DNA of 63,596 nucleotides, the filler included, from Anaerolineae bacterium (GTDB lineage: Bacteria; Chloroflexota; Anaerolineae; B4-G1; DUEL01): NCBI GenBank assembly GCA_041082215.1. It is 14 parts of 14 records of this genome, joined end to end, with 100 filler letters (N's around TTAATTAATTAA, not from the genome) between each part and the next. Parts side by side here need not be neighbours in the genome. Positions count along the whole stretch, not along the records: positions 37,747 to 39,794 come from JBDOIF010000136.1; 13 more parts are not named here. One strand, given 5' to 3'. Made by a program: the position numbers and the translations under genes. The notes beneath the pieces were generated by a model that was not told where the DNA came from, did not search any database, and saw only the letters and a list, made by a program, of their open reading frames with translations. Below, one piece after another: positions 20,554 to 39,954 of the stretch. Position 1 is the first letter of the stretch. Every line of letters begins with the position of its first letter.

Positions 20554-20653
20554 NNNNNNNNNNNNNNNNNNNNNNNNNNNNNNNNNNNNNNNNNNNNTTA
20601 ATTAATTAANNNNNNNNNNNNNNNNNNNNNNNNNNNNNNNNNNNNNNNNNNNN
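20554..20653. other. Artificial contig linker (first of 13)
   Basis: N44-TTAATTAATTAA-N44; others start at 22804, 32319, 37647, 39795, 41168, 45443, 47392, 48836, 57209, 58611, 59769 and 62127. Confidence 0.97.
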
Positions 20654-22803: not shown

Positions 22804-22903
22804 NNNNNNNNNNNNNNNNNNNNNNNNNNNNNNNNNNNNNNNNNNNNTTAATTAATTAANNNNNNNNNNNNNNNNNNNNNNNNNNNNNNNNNNNNNNNNN
22901 NNN

Positions 22904-32318: not shown

Positions 32319-32418
32319 NNNNNNNNNNNNNNNNNNNNNNNNNNNNNNNNNNNNNNNNNNNNTTAATTAATTAANNNNNNNNNNNNNNNNNNNNNNNNNN
32401 NNNNNNNNNNNNNNNNNN

Positions 32419-37646: not shown

Positions 37647-37916
37647 NNNNNNNNNNNNNNNNNNNNNNNNNNNNNNNNNNNNNNNNNNNNTTAATTAATT
37701 AANNNNNNNNNNNNNNNNNNNNNNNNNNNNNNNNNNNNNNNNNNNNGCGGCTGCGGACAAGCTTTGTCAAGTCCTCTGGGGTGGCAATTCCGGGCCCCAG
37801 GCAGGGGGCAATGACAGGTGCACCTGAATATGAATAGAACACCTGTTCCAAAACCATCATTCGCTTGTGAAAGACCTTTTCCGCTTCCCGCTCGCTAAAA
37901 ATTAACAAGCATATAT

Positions 37917-39131
37917 TCAGCGATTGCGATGCTGCCTGACCTGGCTGAGATGATAAGCCTCGTCATAGGGCTGACGATGCTGCCACAGATGCCAGATAAT
38001 CGCCAGCCAGCGGTTGGCCAGACAACGGTAGGCCTGGTTCTTAGACATCCCCCGCTCCAGGGCCTCGGAGAGGTAGGAGGCAGCCCACGCCGAGTGAGCG
38101 ACCGACTCCATTGCGAACTGCTGGGCAGTGTTACGGTAATCGTGATTGCAGGCCTTGCGGAAGCGGACGTGACGGCTTTTCCCGCTCTGCTCGGTGACGG
38201 GGCAGGTGCCGGCGAGAGCCTGGATGGCCGCTGGGGAGGGGAAACGGTCGCGGTGATCGCCGAACATCACCAGCAGTTTAGGTTCGAGGAGCGCTCCGGC
38301 GCCTGGGAGGGAGGCGAAGATAGGGGCGTCGGGGTGCTGAACGAAGAGGGAACGCACCTCTCCGAGTGTCTGCGCCTTGTGCTCCAGCAAATCGAGGAGG
38401 AGCTGGGCCAGGAAAGTAGCCTCATCCTGGTAGGCCAGGAGGACGGCCTGGGCCGGTTCGAGTGGTGGAGCGGCGAGGCGGGCGTAGAGGTCTGGGAGGC
38501 GGCGGGTAGCGGGGTAGTGATGCTTTTTGCAGAAGGAGACGAACTCGGGGAAGGGGAGCTTATGGGCCTGGTGTGGGGAGGGGTAGGCGATGATGAAATG
38601 TAGGGCGATGGGTGTCTGGAGGTCGGAGAAGAGCGTGCAGGCCTGGGGGTAGTAGCGCTGGAGGACGGCATAGAGGCGATTGGCATAGCGGGTGATGGAC
38701 TGGGAGAGGGAGTCAATGAGGCTGAGTTTAGCCCGCATCTGGATGACGAGAGGGCCGTCGGGCTTCCAGGGGGTGAGGCGGTGGCGGTCGGTGCGCAGGA
38801 GGTCGGCGAGGAGGAAGGCGGATCGGTCGTCGGTGACGGCCCCGCTGGAGGTGAGGCGGCCACGGGCAGCGTGGACAACGGAGGGTGGCACGAAGTAGAC
38901 CTGGTACTGGTGTGCCCAGAGGAAGTCAACGAGGAGATTGTGGATGGTTTCGATGGCTACCAGGCATTGGTTTGGGGGGAGGTTGAAGGGGGCGAGCTGT
39001 TTTTCAAAGGTGGCCAGGCCGGCTGGGGAGTGGGGGAAGCGGAAGCGCAGAAGTGAGGCCCCTCTTTCGTTAAGGACACGCACATCGTGATGGTTCTGAC
39101 TCCAATCAATTCCTATGAGCAGTTCTTCCAT
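37917..39131 (-). CDS. IS110-family recombinase/transposase
   Basis: IGIDW, VAIE, TDDRSA (RuvC-like DEDD domain); SLPGAG, AG.CPVTEQSGK, A.RCLANR. Confidence 0.93.
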   Translation of the reverse strand: MEELLIGIDWSQNHHDVRVLNERGASLLRFRFPHSPAGLATFEKQLAPFNLPPNQCLVAIETIHNLLVDFLWAHQYQVYFVPPSVVHAARGRLTSSGAVTDDRSAFLLADLLRTDRHRLTPWKPDGPLVIQMRAKLSLIDSLSQSITRYANRLYAVLQRYYPQACTLFSDLQTPIALHFIIAYPSPHQAHKLPFPEFVSFCKKHHYPATRRLPDLYARLAAPPLEPAQAVLLAYQDEATFLAQLLLDLLEHKAQTLGEVRSLFVQHPDAPIFASLPGAGALLEPKLLVMFGDHRDRFPSPAAIQALAGTCPVTEQSGKSRHVRFRKACNHDYRNTAQQFAMESVAHSAWAASYLSEALERGMSKNQAYRCLANRWLAIIWHLWQHRQPYDEAYHLSQVRQHRNR

Positions 39132-39139
39132 GGCAACCT

Positions 39140-39371
39140 CCAGAAAGGGATGCTCTCACAGGCAGGACGCGGGTTACCGATAGCCTATCAGGGTGCTCGA
39201 GGCACGGCAAGCTTTCGTCGGTGCTCCCGGTCGCGCCTGGGGGACGGTCCGCAGCAGGCGCTCGAGGCGCAGGCTGAGCGAGGTCCTCTGATCCAGGCGT
39301 TTGCCTGTGAGGCTGAACGGGAAACGGAAAGGTCTTCTGGTATATTGTATCACCTCAGCATATAGTGTCTA
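39140..39371 (-). ncRNA. Putative bridge RNA of the IS110 element
   Basis: 10-bp closing stem (39155-39164 with 39302-39311) enclosing two hairpins, each a 4-bp stem, 12x12-nt internal loop, 4-bp stem and CUCGA loop; loop sequences match target and donor junctions; transcript ends are estimated. Confidence 0.78.
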
Positions 39372-39390
39372 CTGCGTATTATAACTGATA

Positions 39391-39413
39391 GGCTGAAACG
39401 CAGGCCGTTAGCC
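39391..39413 (+). mobile_element. 3' arm of an attC site interrupted by IS110
   Basis: Reconstituted GCGGCTGA-aacgcaggcc-GTTAGCC has the same spacing as GCGGCTGA-gcggccagcc-GTTCGGA in the attC at 20107-20170. Confidence 0.6.
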
Positions 39414-39419
39414 GCCTGC

Positions 39420-39462
39420 AAATAAAAGCCGTTCAGGTGAGCCGCCTGACGGTTTTTATTTT
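39420..39462. terminator. Bidirectional terminator-like hairpin
   Basis: AAATAAAAGCCGTTCAGG-tgagccg-CCTGACGGTTTTTATTTT. Confidence 0.55.
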
Positions 39463-39954
39463 ATCACGAAAAGAAATAGAATAGACAAGTAAGCGGCGGC
39501 TTGTGCCGCCGTGAGCGGGCAAGGATAACGGGGGGGCGGCGGCAGACCTGCCCGCCCGCACCCGACCACCGCGGCGGGCAGGTTGTCAAGCCGCCGGGCG
39601 GCTTGACAATCCGCTCGCCCCCCCGCACCCCCCAGCCTTCCAGCCAGCGCGGTTTTCCGCCGCAGTGTAGCGGCGGGCAAGGCTCACCCCCCCGCCGCCC
39701 CCCGCCCCCGCACCCCCACCCCCAGGCATCCCCCCCCGCATATGTACCCATCTATGAGCGGGGGCGGGGGTTGCTCTTGGGGGGGTTCGCCCTGNNNNNN
39801 NNNNNNNNNNNNNNNNNNNNNNNNNNNNNNNNNNNNNNTTAATTAATTAANNNNNNNNNNNNNNNNNNNNNNNNNNNNNNNNNNNNNNNNNNNNAGCGCG
39901 CGGCGGCGGTTCTTTATAAGATATATCTTGCTTCTTACATCAACCGTCGCGGCA

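What the first reader, a model, noticed from the sequence alone, without database searches (positions are those of the whole stretch)
39140..39371. Bridge RNA readable by eye: twin 12x12 loops match all four junction half-sites, with handshake-like bases
Seen on the minus strand: hairpin 1 is GGAC-ctcgctcagcct-GCGC-ctcga-GCGC-ctgctgcggacc-GTCC and hairpin 2 is CCGA-cgaaagcttgcc-GTGC-ctcga-GCAC-cctgataggcta-TCGG. Loop 1 carries TCAGCC (left target) and the complement of GTCCGCAGC (37758-37750, 9 nt). Loop 2 carries AAAGCTTG (right-end donor, 37765-37758) and the complement of AGCCTATCAG (39394-39385, 10 nt). In both right-hand guides the match runs 2 nt past the CC core into the partner DNA, as expected for handshake pairing. 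The core is CC, unlike the CT of IS621. The left donor guide is out of register with the core by one base. Function is inferred from the IS621 model.
Basis: partly seen in the sequence, partly recalled or inferred. Interest (0 to 1): 0.8.

Follow-up and report, generated by a model that had tools for sequence, protein, structure and literature searches.

The report
Bridge RNA of an IS110 element

Summary
Both 45-nt hairpins lie on the minus strand at 39286-39242 and 39221-39177, upstream of a 404-aa IS110-type recombinase gene (PF01548 and PF02371).

The RNA fold is conserved with compensatory changes in 39 homologous elements (21 of 35 pairs, 0 of 500 shuffles). Loop 1 varies with each element's own flanks, at 38 left and 38 right unique junctions (0 of 10,000 permutations each). 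Loop 2 follows the conserved element ends.

The informative positions are 7 nt, a CC core and 5 nt, which is the 14-nt layout of IS621. The base next to the core in the right donor guide covaries with the target, as a handshake base should (30 of 44). Hot-spring metagenome contigs hold an empty site that matches the guides at 14 of 14 positions, and also other insertion flanks.

- The window is a chain of contigs, and the right junction lies about 10 nt from a contig end.
- This copy's left target matches at only 4 of 7 positions.
- The left donor guide's final CC is not conserved (8 of 44).

Verdict: a new member of a known kind, with a CC core, an extra closing helix and no 5' stem-loop in this copy. 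Expression and activity are inferred.

The parts
39393..39399 (-). Left target half (LT, 7 nt, GTTTCAG) in the flank. 4 of 7 positions equal the left target guide.
   Evidence: The homology breakpoint against relatives lies at the CC that follows.
39391..39392 (-). Core dinucleotide CC at the left junction.
   Evidence: The core-pairing GG is present in RTG and RDG of 44 of 44 unique RNAs.
37757..39390 (-). The insertion sequence proper: 1,634 bp. The left non-coding end is 259 nt and the right non-coding end is 160 nt. No terminal inverted repeats were seen.
   Evidence: Similarity to relatives starts at 39390 and ends at 37757.
39378..39383 (-). TATAAT. It becomes the -10 box of a junction promoter once the element is a circle.
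   Evidence: Read. Together with TTGACA at 37770-37765 the spacer would be 8 + 2 + 7 = 17 nt. The junction promoter is described for IS110 elements (PMC11208160).
39344..39371 (-). Resident promoter-like site TAGACA-16 nt-TACAAT, with TG before the -10 box.
   Evidence: 10 of 12 matches. 4 sites were found in the contig against 0.4 expected. The hexamers are conserved in the alignment.
39303..39311 (-). 5' strand of a long-range closing helix (CTCACAGGC).
   Evidence: In the 6-pair part, 5 of 6 pairs show changes on both sides, and 90% of cells are paired in 39 sequences.
39242..39286 (-). Hairpin 1, the target-binding loop. Left target guide 39282-39271, capped stem 39270-39258, right target guide 39257-39246. 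A basal stem lies at 39298-39293 and 39240-39235.
39177..39221 (-). Hairpin 2, the donor-binding loop. Left donor guide 39217-39206, capped stem 39205-39193, right donor guide 39192-39181.
39155..39163 (-). 3' strand of the closing helix (GCCTGTGAG).
37917..39131 (-). Recombinase gene, 404 aa, with GGAGG at 39141-39137. It has a DEDD-type RuvC-like domain and a Tnp domain. The serine of the SG motif is S316. The fourth DEDD position is S104.
37765..37770 (-). TTGACA in the right end. It is the -35 box of the junction promoter.
   Evidence: The same letters are in the relative.
37757..37765 (-). Left donor half (LD, AAAGCTTGT). Its first 8 nt equal the left donor guide. Its last two (GT) are complementary to the handshake letters of the right target guide.
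37755..37756 (-). Core dinucleotide CC at the right junction.
37750..37754 (-). Right target half (RT, GCAGC). 5 of 5 positions are complementary to the right target guide. Three more bases follow, and the contig ends at 37747.

Best explanation
Window 39390-37757 (minus strand) is a 1.63-kb insertion sequence of the IS110 group, flanked by a CC core on each side. Its left end encodes a bridge RNA.

Sequence of events, by analogy with IS621 (inferred):
1. The element leaves as a circle.
2. Circle formation joins TTGACA of the right end to TATAAT of the left end at 17-nt spacing. This gives a consensus promoter.
3. That promoter, or the weaker resident promoter at 39371-39344, transcribes the left end.
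4. The RNA folds into two hairpins held together by a closing helix.
5. The internal loop of hairpin 1 reads a 14-nt target. Its 5' side has the sense of LT plus core (preferred CGCTCAG-CC). Its 3' side is complementary to core plus RT (GCAGC).
6. The loop of hairpin 2 reads the circle junction in the same way (AAAGCTTG.. and CC-TATCAG).
7. The DEDD/serine recombinase exchanges strands at the CC core.
8. The two letters 3' of each GG (AC in loop 1, CU in loop 2) can pair with the partner DNA only after the first strand exchange. These are the handshake letters.

Shown here:
- The anatomy.
- Conservation of the fold.
- Guide-to-flank and guide-to-end covariation.
- An empty site that fits the guides.

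Inferred:
- Transcription.
- RNA-protein binding.
- Catalysis.
- Whether this particular copy is still active.
For: Protein:
- PF01548 at 1.5e-28 and PF02371 at 2.3e-13.
- A profile of 10 relatives hits the IS621 transposase (8wt6, 7.7e-17) and the ISCro4 transposase (9t56, 2.1e-17) over both domains.

RNA conservation:
- 78 of 109 loci held match the 160-nt RNA region by blastn. Four of these are second views of a place already counted.
- A strict rule (all 8 stem pairs, 12 + 12 loop) found at least one hairpin in 68 of 74 loci. Both were assigned in 52 of 74.

Fold:
- A2: 13 of 26 pairs changed on both sides, 92% of cells paired, 0 of 500 shuffles.
- A3: 21 of 35 pairs, 90% paired against 22-51% when slid, 0 of 500 shuffles.

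Guides against flanks. Junctions were located only through the donor loop, so the test is independent of the target loop.
- Left: 38 unique pairs, mean 5.37 of 9 against 2.46 for mismatched pairs.
- Right: 38 unique pairs, mean 4.92 of 7 against 2.19.
- 0 of 10,000 permutations reached the observed value for either side.
- Signal sits at LTG letters 3-9 (58-76% identity against 23-32%) and at the 5 nt after the core (76-95% against 24-52%). That gives 7 + 2 + 5.

Handshake letters:
- The RDG letter next to GG is complementary to LT-1 in 30 of 44 unique RNAs (0 of 10,000 permutations).
- RTG letters against the last two of LD: GT/GT in 35 and CT/CT in 1 of 36.

Close relative: its loop 1 differs from the window's at the positions where the flanks differ.

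Metagenome contigs (table 7; 4 runs from 2 studies):
- One contig carries the window's left flank down to 39400 and runs on into a sequence equal to the guide-predicted 14-mer at 14 of 14 positions. It then continues with the window's remaining right-flank letters, so it is an empty site. I derived that 14-mer from the loops earlier.
- Two contigs join the element's left end to another flank whose LT is 7 of 7.
- One contig gives another right flank with RT 5 of 5.
Against: - No RNA data were obtained. The one run labelled metatranscriptomic is marked 'probably DNA' and covers only part of the gene.
- Rfam 15 has no match at E <= 1.
- The single protein finds nothing in the PDB. Only the profile does.
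- This copy's left target fits only 4 of 7 positions.
- Its 5' stem-loop region does not fold (0.0 kcal/mol), whereas most of the other 38 relatives in that alignment fold a hairpin there.
- The fourth DEDD position is Ser.
- Only one copy is in the assembly.
- The permutation tests ignore relatedness between elements.
- Nine of 38 left junctions scored 0-3 of 9, through register shifts or off-target sites.
- The empty-site and alternative-flank readings rest on single contigs (two for one of them) from metagenomes that may include the window's own source.
Confidence: 0.9

Rival explanations
1. It is the same kind of element, but this copy is a decaying relic. The RNA and the ends still look right, yet the copy can no longer move on its own.
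For: - S104 stands at the fourth DEDD position.
- No 5' stem-loop.
- The left target fits only 4 of 7 positions.
- Single copy in the assembly.
Against: - The 404-aa frame is open, with RBS and promoter boxes intact.
- S or A at that position occurs in 16 of 94 relatives, in several subgroups. These include elements with intact frames and matching guides.
- Metagenome contigs at 90-100% likeness (the read-laying threshold) show the element's ends next to other flanks that fit the guides.
Confidence: 0.2
2. The twin hairpins are only a structured leader that controls translation or stability of the recombinase mRNA. The matches to the junctions are chance.
For: - The RNA lies directly upstream of the RBS.
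- Single matches are not rare when searched over the whole contig.
- The relatives' consensus shows a CCTCC stretch before the GGAGG.
Against: - Loop letters covary with each element's own flanks and ends.
- The junctions rank first, or tied first, of about 2,030 positions in a fixed register.
- An empty site fits 14 of 14.
Confidence: 0.03
3. It is an IS1111-type element that uses a seekRNA encoded in the right end. The left-end hairpins are not the guide.
For: It belongs to the same protein superfamily.
Against: - The guide-bearing RNA lies in the left end.
- The left end (259 nt) is longer than the right end (160 nt). This is the IS110-group pattern described in PMC11208160.
- No long subterminal inverted repeats were seen.
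Confidence: 0.02

Closest known systems
IS621 of Escherichia coli and its bridge RNA (Durrant et al. 2024, PMC11208160; Hiraizumi et al. 2024, PMC11208158)
   Same: - DEDD RuvC-like domain plus Tnp domain with a serine.
- RNA encoded in the long left end.
- Two internal loops, the first variable (target) and the second conserved (donor).
- The 5' sides have the sense of the left halves, and the 3' sides are complementary to the right halves.
- 14-nt sites laid out as 7 + 2 + 5.
- Handshake letters next to the core-pairing letters.
- A promoter rebuilt across the circle junction.
- A core dinucleotide on both sides and no long inverted repeats.
   Different: - The core is CC. IS621 has CT, and its second T is called almost invariant.
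- The proteins are distant. The single sequence finds nothing in the PDB, and the protein is 404 aa against a 328-residue chain.
- A covarying helix closes the two hairpins. I do not recall such a helix in IS621; that rests on recall and was not tested.
- The left donor guide pairs with 8 nt that stop one base before the core. In IS621 each guide includes the core.
- This copy has no 5' stem-loop.
- The fourth DEDD residue is Ser.
ISCro4 / IS622 bridge recombinase (Perry et al. preprint, 10.1101/2025.05.14.653916)
   Same: Same two-loop RNA logic and 14-nt recognition with handshake guides (passages). It is the best PDB profile hit (9t56, 2.1e-17).
   Different: It has a CT core and comes from an enterobacterial host. 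It is a close relative of IS621 and not of this clade.
IS1111-group elements with a seekRNA or bridge RNA in the right end
   Same: Same recombinase family and the same RNA-guided choice of target.
   Different: There the RNA lies downstream of the gene, and the ends carry 7-17-bp subterminal inverted repeats. Here the RNA lies upstream, and no such repeats were seen.

Membership tests
IS110 family, IS110 group (bridge-RNA elements) | Recombinase with a DEDD RuvC-like domain (PF01548) and a Tnp domain (PF02371). | tested here: met
   99.9 bits (cut-off 29) and 50.8 bits (cut-off 21.3); profile hits to the IS621 and ISCro4 transposases.
IS110 family, IS110 group (bridge-RNA elements) | Catalytic D, E, D, D and the Tnp serine (IS621 D11, E60, D102, D105, S241). 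| tested here: inconclusive
   D9, E61, D101 and S316 are invariant in 10 relatives. The position aligned to IS621 D105 is S104 here. It is S or A in 16 of 94 relatives and D in 78.
IS110 family, IS110 group (bridge-RNA elements) | Structured RNA in the left end with two stem-loops that carry internal loops. | tested here: met
IS110 family, IS110 group (bridge-RNA elements) | The first loop covaries with the target flanks, and the second loop with the element's ends, on the expected strands. | tested here: met
   For the window's own element the scores are 17 of 17 (right) and 16 of 19 (left).
IS110 family, IS110 group (bridge-RNA elements) | The same core dinucleotide at both junctions, no long terminal inverted repeats, and a left end longer than the right end. 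| tested here: met
   CC at 39392-39391 and at 37756-37755. Left end 259 nt against right end 160 nt.
IS110 family, IS110 group (bridge-RNA elements) | A promoter rebuilt across the right-end to left-end junction of the circle. | tested here: met
   By sequence only: TTGACA at 37770-37765 and TATAAT at 39383-39378, 17 nt apart once joined. No circle was observed.
IS110 family, IS110 group (bridge-RNA elements) | The RNA is expressed, binds the recombinase and directs recombination. | not testable with these tools
   Only contigs were available. No raw RNA reads were available.
IS621-like subgroup | CT core with a near-invariant T at the second position. | tested here: not met
   The core is CC at both junctions. 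The core-pairing letters are GG in 44 of 44 RTG and RDG loops of the clade.
Any Rfam RNA family | A match to a curated covariance model. | tested here: not met
   nothing over the hairpins at E <= 1.

The most novel reading that the evidence does not exclude
This clade, found in hot-spring and sediment metagenomes and in Chloroflexota MAGs, may be a structurally distinct subclass of bridge systems. Its features are:
- A strict CC core, so the protein would read the second core base differently from IS621.
- Two exactly symmetric 12 x 12 loops tied together by a covarying closing helix.
- A left donor guide that leaves the core unpaired.
- An optional 5' stem-loop.
- A fourth 'DEDD' position that tolerates Ser or Ala.

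If the systems are active at high temperature, they would widen the set of usable cores and give a heat-stable bridge recombinase.
Probability: 0.25. Interest if true: 0.55.

Novelty: new member of a known kind. Interest (0 to 1): 0.4.

Why it matters
It is a clean natural example of RNA-guided recombination outside the enterobacterial models. The guides, the ends, the core, the handshake letters and even an empty target site can all be read from sequence.

For specialists, the points of interest are the CC core, the closing helix, the left donor guide that stops short of the core, and the Ser or Ala at the fourth catalytic position. Each bears on which features of IS621 are general. The hot-spring source suggests a heat-tolerant enzyme.

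The finding does not open a new mechanism. Durrant et al. predicted bridge RNAs in 85.7% of the 274 IS110 recombinases catalogued by ISfinder, and in thousands of orthologues.

Tried and rejected
- **Rfam scan of the contig.** It gave only three sub-threshold chance matches in the flank.
- **Single-protein search of the PDB.** Nothing was found. This was replaced by the profile search.
- **Other copies in the own genome.** None were found, apart from a 47-nt inverted self-match in the flank.
- **Genome-contig scan with the single protein.** Only 2 loci were returned.
- **Longest-match shuffles of single loop sides over the whole contig.** Not significant one by one, and the script crashed before the fourth side. 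This was replaced by the fixed-register scan.
- **The guide-predicted 14-mer in the own genome.** There were 2 exact and 6 one-mismatch sites, in unrelated contexts. At up to 2 mismatches there were 159 matches, against 90 for the backwards control. So the target is not a repeat family, and none of these sites is occupied in the assembly.
- **Search for an empty homologous locus with the 404-nt left flank in 26 genomes of the family.** Only a short repeat (query 55-112) matched.
- **Read laying.**
  - All runs were contigs, so there is no information on RNA ends, strand or level.
  - The run labelled metatranscriptomic is marked probably DNA.
  - No right-end to left-end joint was listed, which shows nothing either way.
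  - The one joint listed (37779 to 38003, with 207 letters between) comes from a less similar relative.
- **Pairing of the upstream CGATGGGG-like segment with the 5' strand of the closing helix.** I considered this as an alternative 5' stem. I rejected it because sequences with a changed helix strand (L090, L066, L042) keep the pairing with the 3' strand and not with the upstream segment. That segment fits the -10 region of the resident promoter instead.

Full report
**1. What the window is**

The 63.6-kb window is not one stretch of genome. One search finds 13 linkers of the form N44-TTAATTAATTAA-N44, so it is a chain of contigs.

The finding lies on a contig of its own, 37747-39794. This is G000:C106, 2,048 bp. 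Everything said about 'flanks' is limited by that:
- 404 nt exist on the left (minus-strand sense).
- Only 8 nt exist on the right.

**2. The observation**

- Hairpin 1 is 39286-39242: GGAC, 12 nt, GCGC, CTCGA, GCGC, 12 nt, GTCC.
- Hairpin 2 is 39221-39177: CCGA, 12 nt, GTGC, CTCGA, GCAC, 12 nt, TCGG.

The four matches are at the quoted coordinates.

Downstream lies a 404-aa frame (39131-37917) with GGAGG at 39141-39137. It scores for both IS110 domains: PF01548 at 1.5e-28 and PF02371 at 2.3e-13.

**3. Where the element ends**

Relatives fix the ends without reference to the loops.
- In a genome of the same order, similarity to the window begins at CC-TATCAG on the left.
- It stops at ..AAAGCTTGT-CC on the right.
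- After those points the flanks differ.

The element is therefore 39390-37757 (1,634 bp), with CC on both sides. The left end is 259 nt and the right end is 160 nt.

**4. Chance, within the window alone**

Single matches are not impressive when searched over the whole contig. Shuffled loop sides reach the observed length in:
- 572 of 2,000 trials for LTG.
- 70 of 2,000 for RTG.
- 187 of 2,000 for LDG.

The script failed before RDG. The longest LTG match is an 8-mer in the ORF.

With the register fixed and slid over about 2,030 positions:
- The right junction scores 17 of 17, and the next best is 12.
- The left junction scores 16 of 19. It ties with an internal look-alike at 39312 (see section 10).

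**5. Homologues**

- A protein alignment of 10 relatives (A1) brought 80 loci from metagenome contigs.
- 78 of the 109 loci then held match the 160-nt RNA region. Four are second views of the same place.
- My sorting rule assigned both hairpins in 52 of 74. The 22 others include three that had two hairpins but were mis-sorted, and six with none.

**6. The fold**

- On 31 sequences (A2), 13 of 26 pairs change on both sides and 92% of cells pair. 0 of 500 shuffles reach this, and slid partners pair at 22-49%.
- On 39 sequences from the element's first base to the start codon (A3), 21 of 35 pairs change on both sides and 90% of cells pair. Again 0 of 500 shuffles reach this.
It is 39311-39303 with 39163-39155. 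In its 6-pair part, 5 of 6 pairs show changes on both sides.
- The small basal stem that I drew under hairpin 2 is poorly supported (49% paired), partly through misalignment.

**7. Guides against DNA**

I placed each left junction with the right donor guide only, using core plus 6 nt. I accepted a hit with at least 7 of 8 matches, 80-115 nt upstream, and unique. I placed each right junction with the left donor guide only, using 8 of 8 matches followed by N and CC. The target loop was therefore not used to find the flanks it is tested against.

After removing identical guide-flank pairs, 38 left and 38 right junctions remained out of 52 loci.

| Side | Own flank (mean) | Other elements' flanks (mean) | Permutations reaching observed |
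|---|---|---|---|
| Left (9 nt) | 5.37 | 2.46 | 0 of 10,000 |
| Right (7 nt) | 4.92 | 2.19 | 0 of 10,000 |

By position, letters 3-9 of the left target guide carry the signal (58-76% identity against 23-32%). Letters 1-2 carry none. The five letters after the core carry it on the right (76-95% against 24-52%), and the next two do not.

That gives 7 + 2 + 5 = 14. This is the layout given for IS621, with the core at positions 8-9 of 14 (PMC11208158, passages; preprint 10.1101/2025.05.14.653916, passages).

Nine of 38 left junctions scored 0-3. At least one group (L039-L041) shows a register shift and a right flank that fits poorly, so not every copy sits in a perfect site. Relatedness among elements is not corrected for.

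**8. Handshake letters and core (44 unique RNAs)**

- The letter 3' of GG in the right donor guide is complementary to the last base of the left target in 30 of 44 (0 of 10,000 permutations).
- The next letter agrees in only 14 of 44.
- The two letters 3' of GG in the right target guide are complementary to the last two bases of the left donor in 36 of 36 junctions. The pairs are GT in 35 and CT in 1, where both sides changed together.

In the window both pairs fit (AG and GT). As the IS621 rule requires, each mismatches its own DNA before exchange.

The stronger signal at the position next to the core is what Hiraizumi et al. report across orthologues.

The core-pairing GG is invariant (44 of 44 in both 3' sides). 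The left target guide has CC in 34 of 44.

**9. The left donor guide**

Only AAAGCNTG is conserved, and it equals the right end. The last two letters of that loop side vary (TT 12, CT 10, TC 9, CC 8, AC 2, CA 2, TG 1), while the DNA is always ..TGT-CC.

However, the apparent CC-to-core pairing is not conserved. In this clade that guide seems to stop one base before the core. For IS621, every guide is said to include the core (PMC11208160).

**10. Promoters and other anatomy**

- TTGACA (37770-37765) and TATAAT (39383-39378) would be 17 nt apart once the ends are joined through one CC. Such a rebuilt promoter is described for IS110 elements.
- A resident site, TAGACA-16-TACAAT with TG, lies at 39371-39344. 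It is conserved in the alignment.
- Between it and the closing helix, most of the other 38 relatives in the alignment fold a hairpin. The window's own sequence folds nothing (0.0 kcal/mol).
- At 39319-39303 the left end holds a look-alike of the left junction. It matches 8 of 9 to the left target guide register and 8 of 10 to the right donor guide register. Close relatives lack it. I have no explanation for it.

**11. The protein**

- D9, E61, D101 and S316 are invariant in A1.
- The position aligned with IS621 D105 is S104.
- Across 94 loci, after dropping five duplicates, it is D in 78 and S or A in 16.
- The S/A cases fall in several subgroups whose elements have open frames and fitting guides.

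**12. Evidence from sequencing runs**

Sixteen runs hold parts of the contig. Fifteen are labelled hot-springs metagenome and one, with a 0.05 share, sediment metagenome. They come from six studies. The best holders may include the source of the window.

On four runs from two studies, all kept as contigs (table 7):
- One contig follows the left flank down to 39400 and then runs on. Read on the minus strand, it runs into the very 14-mer that the guides predict (14 of 14). I derived that 14-mer from the loops earlier. It is followed by the window's three remaining right-flank letters. This is an unoccupied site.
- Two other contigs leave the same flank at 39406 and 39407, into variants that fit less well. 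One has LT 4 of 7 with RT 5 of 5. The other has the window's own LT with RT 4 of 5.
- Two contigs (agreement 0.72) join the element's left end at 39396 to a different flank with LT 7 of 7.
- One contig gives a different right flank after RT 5 of 5.

These are single contigs, but together they show the element next to more than one flank, each fitting loop 1.

**13. What it is**

It is an IS110-group insertion sequence with a bridge RNA. It works like IS621, and I file it in the family.

It is not IS621-like in its core (CC, tested). It also differs in the closing helix, the left donor guide, the missing 5' stem-loop and the fourth catalytic position.

I did not open the supplementary catalogues of Durrant et al., so I cannot say whether this clade is already listed there. 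The papers I used were seen as passages only. The other titles were seen only as a search listing with the start of the abstract.

**14. Verdict**

It is a new member of a known kind. Interest is moderate.

Noticed in passing
whole window; linkers at 20554-20653, 22804-22903, 32319-32418, 37647-37746, 39795-39894 and eight more: The window is a chain of contigs joined by N44-TTAATTAATTAA-N44 linkers (13 linkers). Neighbourhood across a linker is not real. First-stage readings that span one should be treated with care.
   Followed up: yes
window 39319-39303 (minus strand): An internal look-alike of the left junction lies just before the closing helix. It ties with the true junction in the fixed-register scan (16 of 19). 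Close relatives lack it. It may be chance or a pseudo-site, and it remains unexplained.
   Followed up: partly
window 38822-38820 (codon of S104 of the recombinase); relatives L019-L022, L030, L033, L035-L037, L042, L044, L071, L072, L091, L104, L109: The fourth residue of the DEDD motif (IS621 D105 by the alignment) is Ser or Ala in 16 of 94 relatives. The window's protein is one of them. These relatives have open frames and fitting guides.
   Followed up: partly
window 39345-39312 (minus strand): The segment where most relatives fold a hairpin of about 28 nt (the 5' stem-loop) does not fold at all in the window's copy.
   Followed up: partly
window about 39683-39740: A short repeat lies in the left flank. 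It matches many places in related genomes, often at contig ends. It has very high contig depth in one run (120-150). A near-perfect hairpin lies at about 39568-39618, and a 47-nt inverted self-match was also seen. This may be another small repeat element, and it may explain why the contig breaks here.
   Followed up: no
alignment A3, last 50 columns (relatives); window 39155-39132: In the relatives' consensus, a GGCCTCC stretch right after the closing helix could pair with the AAGGAGGTCC ribosome-binding region. That would hide the RBS in the folded RNA. In the window this is weak.
   Followed up: no
loci L039, L040, L041: Copies of one related element sit in two slightly different left sites. 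Their right flank fits the right target guide poorly. That guide is instead complementary to the reverse complement of the element's own left end. This may be an off-target or self-directed case.
   Followed up: no
locus L010 (G052:C163), from about 270 nt into the element: The closest genomic relative's copy loses similarity about 270 nt into the element, early in the recombinase gene. It runs on into unrelated sequence. This looks like a truncated or interrupted copy.
   Followed up: no
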